Part shown: positions 23,459-28,750 of the stretch, piece after piece
Layout of the letters: each line of letters begins with the position of its first letter
Numbering within the stretch: position 1 is the first letter of the stretch
Assembly (NCBI GenBank): GCA_004022145.1
Contig: RCNU01000001.1
DNA length: 64,000 nucleotides
Origin: Paecilomyces variotii
Taxonomy: Eukaryota
Strand: one strand, 5' to 3'
Position numbers and translations under genes: made by a program
The notes under the pieces: model-generated
Databases searched by the model: none
What the model was told of the DNA's origin: nothing
What the model saw: the letters and a program-made list of their open reading frames with translations, nothing else

Positions 23459-25414
23459 ATGCAGTCGTCTCTTTTCCGGGGCTGTCCCGCAAAGCTTCCC
23501 CGCAATCTTCGCCCTCTACTACGTCCCCAGACCGCTCATCGCTCTCCCCTAGGGCGCAGATGGAACAGTAGAAGCGCAGGCGTGAATGCTACACCGGAAT
23601 CAAGCTCTATTCGAGCTGCCTCGCAAGCTACGTTCTGGACAACAGGACGTGTCCTTCTGGTTTCTGCACTGGCCAGTGGTGCCGCTTACGCCTATGCGAG
23701 CTCCGGTGCTGGATCTGTAACTGCGGACAGTACTCGAGAACCTCAATATGGGTCATTACAGGACATGGAAAAGGTACGCGTTCTACACTATGATCTTCTC
23801 AGTACCCCTGGGTGCCCGTATTTTGCCAATGCTCATTTTTGCAGGCCATTGCGGAGCTGCGCACCAAGCTAGGTGACAACGCGGTCAGTACAGATGAGGA
23901 CGATTTGCAAGATCACGGATATTCAGAGTGGTCTACTGTCAACGCGGACCGATTACCGGTGGCCATTGCTTATCCCAAGTCGACGGAAGACGTATCAGAG
24001 ATTGCCGGAGTTTGTTCCAAGTACCGTATGCCCATGGTACCTTACTCTGGAGGCTCAAGTCTCGAAGCCAACTTTTCAGCTCCTTATGGAGGCATGACGA
24101 TCGACTTCGCTTTTATGGATCGGATCCTCGCGCTGCACGAAGAGGATATGGATGTAGTCGTCCAGCCTGCCATACAGTGGATGGAACTTAACGAACAACT
24201 CAAACACACCGGCCTCTTCTTCCCCGTTGACCCTGGCCCTTCGGCCAAGATAGGTGGCATGGTTGGGACAAATTGCAGCGGCACGAACGCGGTCCGATAT
24301 GGCACGATGAAAGACTGGGTTATTAATTTGACCGTCGTGCTCGCGGACGGTCGCGTGATCAAGACACGGAGACGTCCACGCAAAACATCTGCTGGCTACA
24401 ACCTGACGGGGTTGTTTGTCGGATCGGAGGGCACACTTGGGATCGTTACAGAGATCACCCTGAAGCTGGCTGCCACTCCAGAGAAAACGCGAGTCGGTGT
24501 CGTCTCATTCCCATCCATACGAGATGCTGCATCCACTGCGATGCAAGTGATCCGGAAAGGGGTCATAGTACAGTCGATGGAGATACTCGACGACGTTCAA
24601 ATGGATGTCATCAATCGTGCAGGTGGAACGAGTCGAACGTGGAAGAAGTTACCAACGCTCTTCTTCAAATTCTCCGGAACTTCTGCAGGGGTAGATGACA
24701 GCATTAATCTAGTGAAGACGATAGCGAAGCAGAACAAGGCCCAGTCCTTCGACTTTGCCAAGGATGATCGAGAAGCTCATGACCTATGGTCAGCCCGTAA
24801 GCAGTCGCTGTGGAGTATGTTGGCTTTGCGAAAAGAAGGCTCCGAGGTCTGGTCCACAGATGTCGCAGTACCGATTTCTCGACTACCTGACATTATCGGT
24901 ATGTGTCTTTCCGCGTTCTGAGACCATCTTCTAATCCGTACGTGCAGAAGTATCGAAGAAGGAAATGGATGACCTGGGTATCTTCGCCAGCATTCTCGGT
25001 CACATCGGTGACGGTAACTTTCATGAGAGCATTATGTACAACCGACACGATCCTGTGGAGAAGGAACGCGTGGAAAAATGTGTACATGATATGGTCGACC
25101 GCGCTCTTGAAATGGAAGGTTCTTGCACGGTAAGTCCATGGCTGCATCAGGAACGCGTAACCGATAACTATGGATCATCCTAACTGTGATACCAGGGAGA
25201 GCACGGTATTGGTCTGGGAAAGAAAGAATCACTGCTCAAGGAACTCGGCGTGGATACGATCGATATAATGCGCAGCATTAAGCGGTCTCTGGATCCCCAG
25301 TGGATCATGAATCCTGGCAAGATCTTTGATTCAACACGCGAAGTGAAACCGTTAGACACTTCCGAAGTCGAGTCTGCCAGACTGACTGGAGCTAAGCGAG
25401 GCGATAAGTCATAA
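23459..25414 (+). CDS. DLD1: Mitochondrial D-lactate dehydrogenase (cytochrome), FAD-linked oxidase; 3 introns
   Basis: Arg-rich presequence; motifs PYSGGSSLE, FPVDPGPSAKIGGM, GSEGTLG, GHIGDGNFH, GEHGIGLGK, MNPGKIF; stop TAA ends at 25414. Confidence 0.93.
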
Positions 25415-25668
25415 GGTATCGACTAGGAATTACGGGTTTTGCATTTTCAATGATAGAATATATATATTTTGCATGAATATTCCATGTTACTGAGGATGTG
25501 TACGCTGTAAACTCCATCTCTGGTGGTTGAAATTGTTTTATTGATGACTAAGCACGGTCCCGCCGTCATTGGCTGCCCCTCTTCCCCGCCAAAAATGGAG
25601 GAGCGATATCGCAGTTACCATTGCCACAGCATCGCATTTTCACATATCAAGTTTGAGCAAGTGAAGAG

Positions 25669-26004
25669 GTAAGTGTATGCTTTCTCTGGTCTATTTCAGT
25701 GTTGAATCCTATATCTTTATTCGCATATTCTCATTTGCACCATTCGTATGAACATATTACATGCAATGGTTCTCCGTCGCGAGCTTGAAGTTTTTGAGTC
25801 ATTCAGACACCTGGCCGAGAAATCGCAAGCTCAATTCTCGGCCTGATACAAAGATTAAATGAGCTCTTGTTACGCCTGTCCTGTAAATGCATATGGCATG
25901 GCGTTGGTTTAATTGGGCTCATTATATGTTATGCAGTCATTCGGCAGTTTTTGCTTCATTCAAGGCATACTTACAAGCTGACGCTCAAAGTTCTTAACTC
26001 ACAG
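25669..26004 (+). other. Predicted structured 5'-UTR intron of HOM2 (336 nt)
   Basis: GAAGAG|GTAAGT donor, GCTGAC (25977) and CTTAAC branch candidates, CAG acceptor 14 nt before the ATG; several internal inverted repeats. Confidence 0.65.
25795..25801. promoter_or_regulatory. CpcA/Gcn4 cross-pathway control element TGAGTCA
   Basis: Exact consensus about 220 nt upstream of the ATG of an amino-acid biosynthesis gene; a variant TGACTAA lies at 25545-25551. Confidence 0.55.
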
Positions 26005-26018
26005 GCCATATTGGAATA

Positions 26019-27228
26019 ATGTCGTCGCCAGTTGCAAAGAAGAAGTGCGGTATGTTATTGATCAACTCTGAAAGACTTCTTTTGACTGGTTCTAACATTT
26101 ATTAGGTGTCTTGGGTGCCACAGGCTCTGTGGGTCAACGGTTCATCCTGTTGCTCGCCGACCACCCCTTCCTTGTGCTCCATGCTGTTGGTGCATCCAGC
26201 CGGTCTGCTGGAAAGGCATACAAGGATGCAGTGAAGTGGAAGCAGTCTATGCCCATGTCTAAGCAGCTGGGCGAACTCGTCGTTCGGGAATGTACTGCGG
26301 ACAACTTCAAGGACTGCGACATCGTCTTTTCTGGGCTTGACAGCGACGTTGCAGGCGAAGTTGGTATGTTCAAACCAATGCCAATTCCCCTGATGTGAAG
26401 CTCCCTTACTGATGTCTTGCAGAGATGGAGTTCATTAAGGCCGATATCCCCGTCTTCTCCAATGCTAAGAACCACAGAAAGAACCCAATCGTTCCTCTAG
26501 TGGTGCCCACGGTCAACCTGCAGCATCTGGACCTGATCCATCACCAGAGGAAGCAGCTCGGCATGAAGAAGGGATTCCTTGTCTGCAACTCGAACTGCGC
26601 CGTTATTGGTATCGTCATTCCGTTTGCCGCTCTCCAGGCCAAGTTCGGTCCTGTCGAGTACGTGGAAGTCTTCACGGAGCAGGCAGTATCTGGCGCTGGT
26701 TATCCTGGTGTTCCCAGCATGGACATTATGGATAATGTCATTCCCTTCATTAGCGGCGAAGAGGACAAGCTCGAGAACGAGGCTCAGAAGATTCTGGGCT
26801 CTATGAATGCTGATGCCACTGCTTTTGAAGAGCAGTCTGACCTCAAGGTCGGTGCCACCTGCACCCGTGTTGGTGTTACGGACGGCCACATGGCATACGT
26901 TTCTCTGCGCTTCAAGAACCACCCGGCGCCTACGGCGGAACAGGTTAAGCAGGCACTGAGAGAATACAAGTCCGAGGCCCAGAAGCTAGGATGTCATTCC
27001 GCACCAGAGCAAGCTATCGTGGTTTTCGACGAGCCCGATCGACCACAACCAAGACTTGACCGCAACCTGTCGAATGGATACGCCGTCAGCGTTGGACGCG
27101 TCCGTGAAGCACCTGCCGGTGGTTACTTCGATCTCCGTTTCGCCTGTCTTTCCCACAACACAGTCATTGGCGCCGCAGGCTCATCCATCCTCAACGCTGA
27201 GGCTGCTGTCATCAAGGGACTTATCTAA
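26019..27228 (+). CDS. HOM2: Aspartate-semialdehyde dehydrogenase; introns 26050-26105 and 26364-26422
   Basis: [16 protein letters not shown](P)-binding motif, catalytic [23 protein letters not shown]. Confidence 0.97.
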
Positions 27229-27531
27229 ATTAGACCAAAAAAGTAAAGATCTAGTACATACATAGCGCTTTCAATTCAGAAATAATTCTCCAAAAACATA
27301 GGTTTGTCGTGTTTGCATTCATAGTCGATTACATAACACCATAGAGGGCTCAACCCGCCAAGGCGGTCAGGTCAATTAGAATCAGATTAGGACTAGTACT
27401 AGGGCTCGAACCCACAGGCCGTCCGCTAAGCGAATTTTGCGAGTGGATATCTCAACTTCTCGACTTGACGGGATTCTTCCTTCGCGACACCCTCGACAAC
27501 TTTAACGGTTTGAGTCGACAGAGCAGTCAAA

Positions 27532-28750
27532 ATGGGCCGTGGACCGTAAGTGAATCCATTGAATTACATTCACATCGCAGATTGTCTCTCAGCAGATCCT
27601 CTCTCGACAGAGGCTCTGTTCTTTCGTCGCTGCGACCATCGTGATCATGGATTGGAACATCGAAACTGATGAGTTTTGCTATACAGAAAGAAGCACCAGA
27701 AGCGCCTTAGTGCGCCCTCGCACTGGCTCCTGGACAAAATGTCCGGAACCTATGCTCCCAAGGCCTCTCCTGGTCCTCACAAGCTCCGGGACTGCCTGCC
27801 TCTGATCGTCTTCATCCGTAACCGGTACGACATGCCAATTTACATACAGCGAATTCGGTCGAGGGATCGGGGAACTGACAAGATATCTTCTTCTGTAGCC
27901 TGAAGTACGCTCTTAACGGCCGCGAGGTTACCGCCATCCTGATGCAGCGTCTCGTCAAGGTCGACGGCAAGGTCCGCACTGACTCGACCTACCCTGCCGG
28001 TTTCATGGACGTCATCACCATCGAGAAGACCGGCGAGCACTTCCGTCTCGTCTACGACACCAAGGGCCGTTTCACCGTCCACCGTATCCAGGCTGAGGAG
28101 GCTGAGTACAAGCTGGGCCGCGTCAAGCGCGTTCAGCTCGGCAAGGGCGGGATCCCATTCTTGGTTACGCACGATGCGAGAACGTGAGTTTATGCTCTCC
28201 ACAAGTTCCGCGTCATTCAGTCGTTGGACCAAGCTTTGGTTGATCGGCGGAGGACGAGGAATTCCTTTCCTACTGGAGACAGTAAGATCGCATTGTGCGT
28301 GGACATTTTTGTGCTGACAGTTGCTTTCTACAGCATCCGCTACCCCGACCCCTCCATCCGTGTCAACGACACCGTGAAGATCGACCTTGCCACCGGCAAG
28401 ATCACCGACTTCGTTCGCTTCGACACTGGTGTTGTCGTTATGGTCACTGGTGGTCGTAACATGGGTCGTGTTGGTGTCATCACCCACCGTGAGCGTCACG
28501 ATGGTGGTTTCAACATCGTCCACATCAAGGATGCCATTGACAACACCTTCGCCACTCGTGAGTCCAACGTCTTCGTCATTGGACGCGAGAAGCCCTGGAT
28601 CTCTCTGCCCAAGGGCAAGGGTGTCAAGGTATGTTTTTTATGCCCACCACAGAGTATTGGAGTCTTGGGCAAGAGGCTAACATTATCCCACAGCTCTCCA
28701 TCGCTGAGGAGCGTGACCGCCGCCGTGCTTACGCTATTGCTGGCCAGTAA
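27532..28750 (+). CDS. RPS4: 40S ribosomal protein S4 (eS4); introns 27546-27686, 27825-27898, 28184-28333, 28629-28693
   Basis: Spliced translation [22 protein letters not shown]...HDARTIRYPDP...GGRNMGRVG...[18 protein letters not shown]. Confidence 0.98.

What the first reader, a model, noticed from the sequence alone, without database searches (positions are those of the whole stretch)
25669..26004. HOM2 5'-UTR intron that can sequester its own 5' splice site with a U1-like segment: candidate splicing switch
Seen: the donor region GTAAGTGTATGCTTT (25669-25683) is complementary to AAGGCATACTTAC (25962-25974), which ends 2 nt before the branch-like GCTGAC. This gives 13 bp with a 2-nt bulge; a second 9-bp register (GTATGCTTT/AAGGCATAC) would largely free the donor. 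The stem encloses three hairpins: ACCATT-c-GTATG/CATGC-AATGGT (25739-25770); TTTTTG-a-GTCA..GGCCGAGAA/TTCTCGGCC-TGAT-a-CAAAGA (25791-25854); and AATGAGCTC..ACGCC/GGCGT..GGGCTCATT (25858-25923). GAGCTTG (25781-25787) can also pair with loop bases CAAGCTC (25826-25832). The intron is far longer than the ~55-60-nt coding introns of this gene and contains upstream ATGs and a TGAGTCA site. Established: ATACTTAC matches the U1 snRNA 5' end, and fungal TPP riboswitches act by masking splice sites in 5'-UTR introns. Inference: a ligand- or protein-controlled splicing element for the Thr/Met branch, or an intronic H/ACA snoRNA (ANANNA-type ATACAA/AGATTA between hairpins, ATA after the last).
Basis: partly seen in the sequence, partly recalled or inferred. 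Interest (0 to 1): 0.8.

Follow-up and report, generated by a model that had tools for sequence, protein, structure and literature searches.

The report
Real HOM2 leader intron, unsupported RNA switch
The fungal HOM2 gene really has a long intron in its leader, but the proposed self-masking RNA fold looks like chance, and what is conserved inside the intron are DNA control motifs.

Summary
The intron is real. An RNA contig from a pure-culture run joins 25668 to 25991, so the intron is 25669-25990 (322 nt, GT..AG).

All quoted complementary segments sit at the stated coordinates, but they are no better than chance:
- Whole-intron fold: z = -1.05.
- Donor duplex: equalled or beaten by 1043 of 2000 shuffles.
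- It is one of ten comparable inverted repeats in 451 nt.

There is no Rfam match. In the one close relative found, L001, the intron interior cannot be aligned. Its fold is no better than shuffles and its donor has no equivalent partner near the branch site.

What is conserved:
- the core promoter just upstream of the donor;
- a TGAGTCA (CpcA/Gcn4-type) site about 130 nt into the intron;
- a TATA-like box.

RNA contigs also show the intron unspliced in one food metatranscriptome, an A-tailed RNA ending at 25756, and an A-tailed RNA ending exactly at the intron's 3' end.

Verdict: an ordinary 5'-UTR intron spanning DNA control elements. The riboswitch-like switch and the snoRNA are not supported.

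The parts
25545..25551 (+). TGACTAA, part of the block TGACTAAGC(A/G)CGG conserved with L001; an upstream bZIP-type site of the distal promoter
25568..25572 (-). CCAAT box (read as ATTGG on the + strand), conserved with L001
25601..25641 (+). Conserved core-promoter block (GAGCGATATCGCAGT ... TTGCCACAGnATCGCATTTTC) directly upstream of the likely transcription start
   Evidence: blastn: 77.6% identity over 76 nt to L001, E 8e-9; alignment
25642..25668 (+). Exon 1 (27 nt if the start is A 25642). The start is inferred only from where X4 cover begins, next to a library adaptor
   Evidence: tables 7 and 8, X4 record 5; no X4 cover over 25498-25641
25669..25990 (+). 5'-UTR intron, 322 nt, GT..AG
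   Evidence: joint 25666>25989 (cut +2) in X7 contig 14, depth 988.7 (table 5)
25669..25683 (+). Donor segment GTAAGTGTATGCTTT
25739..25770 (+). Predicted hairpin 1, -8.8 kcal/mol. The A-tail addition site 25756 lies in its loop
   Evidence: table 7
25756..25756 (+). 3' end of an RNA carrying an untemplated A run (23 A) in X4; a premature end inside the intron
   Evidence: table 7; the following genomic bases are not A-rich
25791..25854 (+). Predicted hairpin 2 with a perfect 9-bp core (25813-21 with 25835-43); -17.8 kcal/mol
   Evidence: I5
25795..25801 (.). TGAGTCA, matching the CpcA/Gcn4 response element TGA(C/G)TCA. It lies +126 from the donor and -224 from the ATG. L001 has the same heptamer at +133 and -204
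   Evidence: motif definition from PMC3199737
25858..25923 (+). Predicted hairpin 3, -21.8 kcal/mol
25923..25928 (+). TATA-like TATATG, aligned with TATAG of L001. No ATG lies between 25934 and the start codon
25962..25974 (+). Donor-complementary ('U1-like') segment AAGGCATACTTAC. It is absent from the homologous place in L001
25977..25982 (+). Branch-site motif GCTGAC (branch A at 25981, 9 nt before the 3' splice site). Identified by motif only, not mapped
25989..25990 (+). Acceptor AG actually used. It is also the 3' end of an A-tailed contig (25673-25990 plus 25 loose letters, A but for one T) in X6
   Evidence: tables 5, 7 and 8
25991..26018 (+). Exon 2 leader (28 nt). The spliced leader is 55 nt with no ATG
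26019..27228 (+). HOM2 / aspartate-semialdehyde dehydrogenase coding region, with introns 26050-26105 and 26364-26422
   Evidence: joints; Pfam Semialdhyde_dh 5e-18 and Semialdhyde_dhC 1.3e-34

Best explanation
This is an ordinary spliceosomal intron, unusually long for this genome, in the 5' leader of HOM2 (25669-25990).

Shown:
- It is removed using GTAAGT and the first AG after the branch motif GCTGAC.
- This leaves a 55-nt leader free of ATG. The unspliced leader carries 10 upstream ATGs.
- Unspliced, prematurely A-tailed and excised A-tailed forms all exist as RNA.

Inferred:
- The intron's RNA sequence is not a conserved folded element. The donor/'U1-like' helix and the three hairpins are chance-level features of one species.
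- What selection keeps is at the DNA level: a distal core promoter ending at about 25642, and, inside the intron, a CpcA/Gcn4-type TGAGTCA site and a TATA-like box at the distances from the ATG where intron-less relatives have their promoter.
- So the intron most likely exists because transcripts from the distal start read through the older, amino-acid-control-responsive proximal promoter region, and that ATG-rich stretch must be spliced out for translation.
- Retention and premature ends are the non-productive by-products of a long intron in a short-intron fungus.

Whether the proximal promoter also fires on its own is not shown.
For: Intron and its ends:
- Spliced joint in X7 with GT..AG. 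The three neighbouring short introns are spliced in the same contig.

No special structure:
- Searches give z -1.05, 1043 of 2000 shuffles, the stem 3.1 kcal/mol above the MFE, and 10 comparable inverted repeats in 451 nt.
- No Rfam family at E <= 10 in 25300-26200 (best E 3.9, outside the intron). None reaches gathering score in the whole window.

No conservation of the RNA:
- Of 11 fungal loci found, only L001 (= L002 = L003) aligns upstream. blastn matches 25601-25674 and the ATG region but nothing inside the intron.
- The L001 intron folds worse than shuffles: z +0.89, 81 of 100 as good. Its donor's best partner is 90 nt downstream, not at the branch.
- First 30 nt against the 45 nt before the branch: -13.0 in the window, -6.3 in L001.

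DNA motifs:
- TGA[CG]TCA lies at -150 to -224 from the ATG in 4 of 7 species examined. Background is 6 per 64 kb in the window.
- HOM2 is under Gcn4 control in yeast (PMC4117449, passages). The CPRE is TGA(C/G)TCA (PMC3199737, passages).

uATGs: 10 in the intron, 0 in the spliced leader.

RNA forms:
- X4 contigs cover 25642-25756, 25727-25931 and 25902-26048 with no cover over 25498-25641.
- There is an A-tail after 25756 (X4) and after 25990 (X6).
- Promoter-proximal premature termination within first introns is reported for A. fumigatus (PMC12810187, passages).
Against: - Only one close relative could be compared, so lack of conservation rests on n = 1. A lineage-specific element cannot be excluded.
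- Individual hairpins, especially the perfect 9-bp GC-rich core (1 of 500 shuffles as good), are somewhat more stable than shuffles.
- The splicing state differs sharply between X7 (spliced) and X4 (unspliced, with the coding introns removed). That is what a regulated switch would give.
- Contigs cannot measure levels, and X4 looks like a library of few amplified molecules.
- The transcription start at 25642 and any internal start are not shown. In X7 a contig runs on from the upstream gene into exon 1.
- An activator site downstream of a start site is unusual in fungi (recalled, not tested), so its role for the distal promoter is unclear.
Confidence: 0.6

Rival explanations
1. The intron is a regulated splicing switch: the segment 25962-25974 next to the branch site pairs with the donor and hides it from U1. 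A ligand or protein shifts the helix to the 9-bp register that frees the donor.
For: - The complementarity exists.
- With the helix forced, the fold is only 3.1 kcal/mol above the MFE, and its pairs have about 5-14% probability.
[quoted passage not shown] If it forms, it should inhibit.
- X4 shows the intron unspliced and X7 shows it spliced.
- Long-range pairing near a 5' splice site controls splicing in the N. crassa TPP riboswitch (PMC3597705, abstract).
Against: - The duplex is no better than shuffles: 1043 of 2000 overall, 343 of 2000 for the last 60 nt.
- The MFE and centroid folds do not use it.
- L001 lacks the segment at the homologous place. Its equivalent duplex is -6.3 kcal/mol and its donor's best partner is elsewhere.
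- There is no aptamer-like family in Rfam.
- The reverse complement of a consensus donor is one base from the yeast branch consensus (recalled motif). A degenerate branch-like word beside the real branch site will therefore often look 'U1-like'. CTTAC also precedes the branch motif in coding intron 2.
Confidence: 0.1
2. Alternative-promoter model. The 'intron' is also the gene's proximal, CpcA-inducible promoter. Under amino-acid starvation, transcription starts downstream of the TATA-like box (about 25935-25990) and gives an unspliced, ATG-free short leader. The distal start plus splicing gives basal expression.
For: - TGAGTCA and a TATA-like box are the only things kept between the window and L001 inside the intron.
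- The heptamer sits at -150 to -224 from the ATG in 4 of 7 species. This includes L006, where no consensus donor lies upstream of it.
- There is no ATG from 25934 to the start codon.
- X4 contig 7 runs unspliced from 25902 into exon 2.
Against: - No read or contig end marks an internal start.
- X4 contigs also cover 25642-25931, which an internal start cannot explain.
- In X7 the spliced form passes the junction without a break.
- The pyrimidine-rich tract before 25962 fits an intron as well as a promoter.
Confidence: 0.3
3. Stable excised intron. After splicing, the intron persists as a linear, A-tailed RNA like the stable introns of stationary-phase yeast, and may itself act, for example by holding spliceosome components.
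For: - X6 contig 9 covers 25673-25990, followed by 25 untemplated letters (A but for one T), exactly at the 3' splice site.
- X6 has no cover of exon 1 or of 25991-26057.
- The other tails listed lie at the mRNA 3' ends (and at 25756 in X4); none is listed inside the coding region.
- Yeast stable introns are defined by 3' oligo(A) tails and a short branch-to-3'SS distance (bioRxiv 10.1101/426049, passages). Here that distance is 9 nt by motif.
Against: - It is one contig in one run, at depth 7.55 against 135.8 for the mRNA contig. Depths of contigs are not levels.
- The tail could have been added to any free 3' OH during library making.
- A 9-10 nt branch distance is normal for this genome's introns, so it does not single out this intron.
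- Linear versus lariat is not shown.
- Tailing by the nuclear surveillance machinery also marks RNAs for decay.
Confidence: 0.12
4. Intronic H/ACA snoRNA formed by hairpins 2 and 3 (25791-25929).
For: - There are two adjacent hairpins with ANANNA-type words between them (ATACAA 25846-51, AGATTA 25852-57) and ATA 3 nt before 25929.
- H2+H3 has z -2.44, with 11 of 500 shuffles as good.
Against: - No snoRNA family reaches E <= 10 within the intron (the sR3 C/D-box hit, E 3.9, lies at 26124-26146 on the - strand).
- There is no ACA.
- Both H-box candidates overlap the 3' strand of hairpin 2, leaving a 3-nt hinge.
- About 19 nt separate the base of the upper stem from ATA, against 14-16 nt in the family (the family rule is recalled).
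- Nothing in this stretch is conserved in L001, although guide sequences normally are.
- RNA contigs cover the intron evenly, without a sub-fragment.
Confidence: 0.03

Closest known systems
5'-UTR introns of filamentous fungi, with intron retention and promoter-proximal premature termination (A. fumigatus End-Seq study, PMC12810187)
   Same: A GT..AG intron upstream of the start codon, a uATG-rich unspliced leader, and an A-tailed RNA end inside the first intron close to the promoter.
   Different: Here a conserved CpcA/Gcn4-type site and a TATA-like box lie inside the intron. The gene itself is not mentioned in the passages I read; the paper's supplements were not seen.
Fungal TPP riboswitch controlling splicing by pairing near a 5' splice site (N. 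crassa, PMC3597705)
   Same: Long-range complementarity between a segment near a 5' splice site and a distant intronic segment, in a fungal biosynthetic gene.
   Different: There is no aptamer, no Rfam match, no conservation of the pairing in the one relative, and no stability beyond shuffles. In the TPP case the pairing is conserved across many fungi and was proven by mutation.
Yeast zipper stems, and the RPL7B-type structural splicing enhancer with a mutually exclusive inhibitory fold (PMC12350175, PMC12311795)
   Same: A helix joining the start of a long intron to the region before the branch point.
   Different: The positional rules are not met. [quoted passage not shown] It could only inhibit, and it is not conserved.
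Stable excised linear introns of S. cerevisiae (bioRxiv 10.1101/426049)
   Same: An excised-intron-length RNA with an untemplated A tail at the exact 3' splice site, and a short branch-to-3'SS distance.
   Different: Seen in one contig of one metatranscriptome. Linearity, accumulation and TORC1 dependence are unknown. The short distance is typical of all introns here.
Gcn4/CpcA response elements (CPRE, TGA(C/G)TCA) of amino-acid biosynthetic genes, including yeast HOM2
   Same: An exact heptamer about 150-225 nt upstream of the ATG in 4 of 7 orthologous loci. HOM2 is a Gcn4 target in yeast (PMC4117449).
   Different: In the window and L001 the site lies downstream of the mapped donor, that is, inside the transcribed intron rather than upstream of the start. 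Binding was not tested.

Membership tests
Spliceosomal GT-AG intron in a 5' UTR | Exon-exon joint in RNA with GT..AG ends | tested here: met
   X7 contig joins 25668 to 25991; 1 of 4 runs laid shows the joint
Spliceosomal GT-AG intron in a 5' UTR | Branch-site motif (CTRAC) shortly before the acceptor | tested here: met
   CTGAC at 25978 is the only CTRAC in the intron's last 140 nt; the branch A is 9 nt from the AG. Motif only, the branch is not mapped
Spliceosomal GT-AG intron in a 5' UTR | Lies wholly upstream of the start codon of an identified gene | tested here: met
   ATG at 26019; Pfam Semialdhyde_dh and Semialdhyde_dhC
Riboswitch / structured splicing switch (TPP-riboswitch type) | Match to a described aptamer or structured family | tested here: not met
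   No Rfam match at E <= 10 inside the intron; none at gathering score in the window; none in L001 3100-3700 beyond one E = 9 CRISPR-repeat hit
Riboswitch / structured splicing switch (TPP-riboswitch type) | Fold more stable than shuffled sequence | tested here: not met
   z -1.05, 14 of 100; donor duplex matched by 1043 of 2000 shuffles
Riboswitch / structured splicing switch (TPP-riboswitch type) | Helices conserved or covarying in orthologues | tested here: not met
   One relative only (L001): interior unalignable, consensus folding term -0.99, equivalent duplex -6.3 against -13.0
Riboswitch / structured splicing switch (TPP-riboswitch type) | Ligand- or protein-dependent change of splicing | not testable with these tools
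   X4 (unspliced) and X7 (spliced) differ, but the conditions are unknown and contigs give no levels
H/ACA snoRNA | Hairpin, single-stranded ANANNA hinge, hairpin, ACA 3 nt from the 3' end | tested here: not met
   ATA instead of ACA; the ANANNA candidates 25846-51 and 25852-57 overlap the hairpin 2 stem. The family rule is recalled
H/ACA snoRNA | Conserved in related species / matches a known snoRNA family | tested here: not met
   No similarity to L001 in 25790-25930; no Rfam snoRNA hit within the intron
H/ACA snoRNA | Guide pockets complementary to rRNA | not tested
   No rRNA of this organism was at hand: no genome is held and there is no rRNA in the window
Zipper stem (splicing-enhancing 5'SS-branch helix) | Starts >= 10 nt from the 5'SS, ends >= 20 nt from the branch, linkers 42-85 nt in total | tested here: not met
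   The helix starts at intron position 1 or 7 and ends 7-11 nt before the branch, against the rule in PMC12350175
Stable excised linear intron | Excised-intron RNA with untemplated A tail at the 3' splice site | tested here: met
   X6 contig 25673-25990 plus 25 loose letters (A but for one T); 1 of 4 runs
Stable excised linear intron | Short branch-to-3'SS distance | tested here: inconclusive
   9 nt by motif, but the coding introns have about 10 nt as well, so this is not distinctive
Stable excised linear intron | Linear form accumulating in saturated culture or under TORC1 inhibition | not testable with these tools
   Needs northern blots or RNase R treatment, and defined cultures
CpcA/Gcn4 response element | Exact TGA(C/G)TCA kept at a similar distance from the ATG in orthologues | tested here: met
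   Window -224, L001 -204, L006 -187, L011 -150; none in L007, L008, L010. That is 4 of 7. Background is 6 in 64,000 nt
CpcA/Gcn4 response element | Bound by CpcA and needed for starvation induction | not testable with these tools
   Needs ChIP and a promoter mutation

The most novel reading that the evidence does not exclude
The HOM2 leader intron is a condition-dependent gate in a filamentous fungus. It is efficiently removed in laboratory culture but largely retained or prematurely terminated during food fermentation. The excised intron persists as an A-tailed linear RNA of the kind so far described only for stationary-phase budding yeast. Control of the Thr/Met branch point would then work through splicing of a uATG-laden leader that also houses the gene's amino-acid-control element.
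Probability: 0.12. Interest if true: 0.6.

Novelty: new member of a known kind. Interest (0 to 1): 0.27.

Why it matters
The evidence does not support that.

What remains is a well-delimited example of three things:
- A long 5'-UTR intron that spans conserved promoter motifs.
- An unspliced leader with 10 uATGs, which would block translation.
- Three RNA fates visible in public data: spliced, retained or prematurely ended, and excised with an A tail.

This is useful for annotation (the correct acceptor and a likely start site). It is also a cheap test case for intron retention and stable introns in moulds.

Tried and rejected
- Whole genome for genome-wide controls and rRNA: none is held.
- Earlier scan notes by place and by sequence: nothing to show.
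- Introner-like or transposon origin, suggested because the two arms look like terminal inverted repeats. There is no second copy of the intron in the 64-kb window (best other match 19 nt, E 0.2) or in the 27 fetched loci. The donor position is shared with L001, which lacks the second arm. Rejected as unsupported; the rest of the genome could not be searched.
- C/D-box snoRNA: only a by-eye look at the read-out, which showed no C-box-like word in the intron, and no Rfam hit within it.
- Zipper-stem (splicing-enhancing) reading of the 9-bp register: it fails the positional rules.
- X2 gave no information on splicing. Its two contigs run unspliced through all introns, as DNA would, and leave 25690-25916 uncovered.
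- Distant fungal loci (L004/L006, L007, L008, L010, L011) share no alignable upstream sequence. Possible leader introns in them could not be judged without RNA.
- Parts without cover in the laid runs are not used as evidence of absence, except where a contig passes a junction unbroken.
It was re-run with fewer shuffles.
Full report
WHAT IS THERE

The window is from a filamentous fungus. The ORF pieces downstream of the finding carry the two domains of aspartate-semialdehyde dehydrogenase: Semialdhyde_dh at 5e-18 and Semialdhyde_dhC at 1.3e-34. The start codon is at 26019. The gene upstream on the same strand is an FAD-linked oxidase of the D-lactate dehydrogenase type, ending at 25414.

IS THE INTRON REAL?

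Yes. I laid four public runs on 25000-27400. X7 is a pure-culture run whose contig is spliced at all three known short introns, so it is RNA. Its contig joins 25666 to 25989 with two ambiguous letters, which gives a GT..AG intron at 25669-25990 (322 nt).
- The coding introns are 26050-26105 and 26364-26422 (56 and 59 nt), so the leader intron is indeed unusually long.
- Only 1 of the 4 runs shows the leader joint. X2 behaves like DNA, with no intron removed anywhere.

IS THE STRUCTURE THERE, AND IS IT MORE THAN CHANCE?

- The whole intron folds at -82.0 kcal/mol against -76.95 +/- 4.82 for dinucleotide shuffles: z -1.05, 14 of 100 as good. Neither the MFE nor the centroid uses the donor/25962-74 helix.
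- The best duplex of the donor segment (25663-25685) with the rest of the intron is -15.2 kcal/mol. Shuffles give -15.5 +/- 2.2, and 1043 of 2000 are as good. Restricted to the last 60 nt, 343 of 2000 are as good.
- Forcing the 13 pairs costs 3.1 kcal/mol. Their ensemble probabilities are 0.05-0.14.
- In 25600-26050 there are ten inverted repeats of 8-14 nt. Another (I4) pairs exon 1 with the 3' splice site.
- The hairpins, when cut at their own ends, give z -2.4 to -2.8. The perfect 9-bp core of hairpin 2 is matched by 1 of 500 shuffles. These windows were chosen after the fact, and the block 25735-25930 gives z -1.63 (35 of 500).
- The reverse complement of a consensus donor differs by one base from the classic yeast branch word (a recalled motif). 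A degenerate branch-like word next to the true branch site will therefore often look 'U1-like'. CTTAC also precedes the branch motif of coding intron 2.

KNOWN RNA FAMILIES

- A permissive Rfam scan of 25300-26200 gave two hits at E 3.9 and 8.9, both outside the intron.
- The whole window gave nothing at gathering score.
- The L001 counterpart gave one E = 9 hit to a CRISPR repeat.

RELATIVES

A scan of metagenome contigs with the exon-3 protein returned 27 loci. Eleven are fungal, at 81-87% identity. L001, L002 and L003 are identical.

Only L001 shares upstream DNA with the window. 25601-25674 aligns at 77.6% over 76 nt (E 8e-9), and the ATG region at 81% over 37 nt. L001 has GTAAGT at the aligned place, 337 nt before its ATG (350 nt in the window). 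The leader intron is therefore probably shared, although I have no RNA for L001 and its acceptor is uncertain (3543 or 3568).

Inside the intron the two sequences cannot be aligned.
- The L001 intron folds worse than its shuffles: z +0.89, 81 of 100 as good.
- Its donor's best partner lies 90 nt downstream, not at the branch.
- The duplex between the first 30 nt and the 45 nt before the putative branch is -6.3 kcal/mol, against -13.0 in the window.
- By my eye, not in the MAFFT alignment, the words before the branch can be lined up so that CATACTTAC would be an insertion relative to L001.

This is a single comparison, so it weakens a conserved element but does not exclude one.

WHAT IS CONSERVED

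1. A block from TGACTAAGC through a CCAAT box, a GC-rich word and a roughly 40-nt stretch ending at about 25641.
   - X4 cover begins exactly at A 25642, next to a library adaptor, with no cover over 25498-25641.
   - I therefore read 25601-25641 as core promoter and 25642-25668 as a 27-nt exon 1. This is an inference.
   - In X7 a contig runs on from the upstream gene, so a start further upstream is not excluded.
2. TGAGTCA at +126 from the donor in the window and +133 in L001.
   - The heptamer TGA[CG]TCA lies -150 to -224 from the ATG in 4 of 7 species examined: window, L001, L006 and L011. It is absent in L007, L008 and L010.
   - The background is 6 per 64 kb. By my arithmetic that is about 0.03 expected per 300 nt.
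   - This is the CpcA/Gcn4 response element (PMC3199737, passages).
   - HOM2 is a Gcn4 target in yeast (PMC4117449, Introduction passage).
3. A TATA-like word about 95-105 nt before the ATG in both. It is followed in the window by 85 nt without ATG.

The 3' part of the intron aligns slightly better than shuffles: 56 of 129 columns identical, and 5 of 100 shuffles are as good.

RNA FORMS

- Spliced form: seen in X7.
- Unspliced form: X4 contigs cover 25642-25756, 25727-25931 and 25902-26048. The last continues through both spliced coding introns to a poly(A) tail at 27338. In that library the leader intron is therefore unspliced on RNA whose coding introns are gone, and no spliced-junction branch breaks the contig.
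- Premature end: an untemplated run of 23 A follows 25756 in X4, in the loop of hairpin 1. The next genomic bases are not A-rich. Promoter-proximal premature termination in first introns has been described in A. fumigatus (PMC12810187, passages).
- Excised intron: X6 contig 9 covers 25673-25990, followed by 25 untemplated letters (A but for one T), exactly at the 3' splice site. X6 has no cover of exon 1 or of 25991-26057. The other tails listed in these two libraries lie at the mRNA 3' ends and at 25756; none is listed inside the coding region. This matches the signature used to define stable excised linear introns in yeast (bioRxiv 10.1101/426049, passages).

Three cautions apply to the excised form. 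It rests on one contig. The tail might have been added in library making. A 9-10 nt branch distance is ordinary in this genome.

Contig depths are not levels, and I draw no quantitative conclusion from them.

CONSEQUENCE OF SPLICING

The spliced leader is 55 nt and has no ATG. The intron holds 10 ATGs with short ORFs, none reaching the main start. Retention should therefore strongly reduce translation (inference).

MECHANISM I COMMIT TO

- It is an ordinary spliceosomal leader intron.
- Its RNA interior is not a conserved folded element.
- It spans DNA control motifs (CPRE and TATA-like) that sit where intron-less relatives have their promoter.
- Transcripts from the conserved distal promoter must lose this uATG-rich stretch to be translated.
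- Retention, premature ends and an A-tailed excised form are by-products of a long intron in a short-intron organism.

Confidence is 0.6.

RIVALS

- An internal CpcA-driven promoter producing an unspliced short leader: 0.3. This is compatible with the main reading.
- A functional stable excised intron: 0.12.
- An H/ACA snoRNA: 0.03.

COMPARISON WITH KNOWN SYSTEMS

- It works like other fungal 5'-UTR introns with retention.
- It resembles the TPP-riboswitch introns only in having a long-range complement near a 5' splice site. It fails the aptamer, stability and conservation tests.
- It fails the positional definition of a zipper stem.
- It shares two of the descriptive marks of yeast stable introns.

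NOVELTY AND SCORE

It is a new member of a known kind. Interest is about 0.27. The proposed switch would have been remarkable but is not supported. The retained and A-tailed intron forms, and the CPRE inside the intron, are modestly interesting and easy to test.

LIMITS

- Only one relative could be compared.
- No genome is held.
- Supplements of the cited papers were not seen.
- No search was made for prior annotation of this particular intron, so I do not claim that it is unpublished.

Noticed in passing
window 25649-25658 and 25983-25992: A 10-nt inverted repeat (90% complementary) pairs the end of exon 1 with the stretch across the 3' splice site. It could bring the two exon ends together, or it could be chance.
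   Followed up: no
window 25601-25641; L001 3180-3224: A strongly conserved roughly 40-nt block just upstream of the likely start. It contains the palindrome GCGATATCGC and a second ATCGC word. This looks like a conserved core-promoter or factor-binding element of HOM2.
   Followed up: partly
window 27296-27298 and 27338: HOM2 mRNA shows two poly(A) addition regions in different runs: 27296/27298 in X6, with the X7 contig also ending at 27298, and 27338 in X4. They lie about 70 and 110 nt after the stop codon.
   Followed up: no
window 25130-25195 and 25477: The upstream FAD-linked oxidase gene (D-lactate dehydrogenase type) has a confirmed 66-nt intron and a poly(A) site about 63 nt after its stop. 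Only about 165 nt separate it from the likely HOM2 start. In X7 one contig bridges both genes.
   Followed up: partly
window 27533-28190: Ribosomal protein S4e gene on the + strand (RS4NT 6.7e-17, Ribosomal_S4e 6.7e-23). There appears to be a long (about 140 nt) intron a few codons after its ATG (GTAAGT at about 27548).
   Followed up: partly
window 26058-26105 (X6): In X6 the mRNA contig starts inside coding intron 1 (26058) and shows no 26049|26106 joint, although intron 2 is spliced. Either the few 5'-most molecules were unspliced or it is an assembly edge effect.
   Followed up: no
L011 about 920-1095; L004/L006 just before the ATG: More distant relatives have donor-like and branch-plus-AG words upstream of their ATG. 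One example is GTACGT at -269 in L011, with TGAGTCA at -150 between it and a possible acceptor. A leader intron enclosing the CPRE may be older than the window's lineage. There is no RNA evidence.
   Followed up: no
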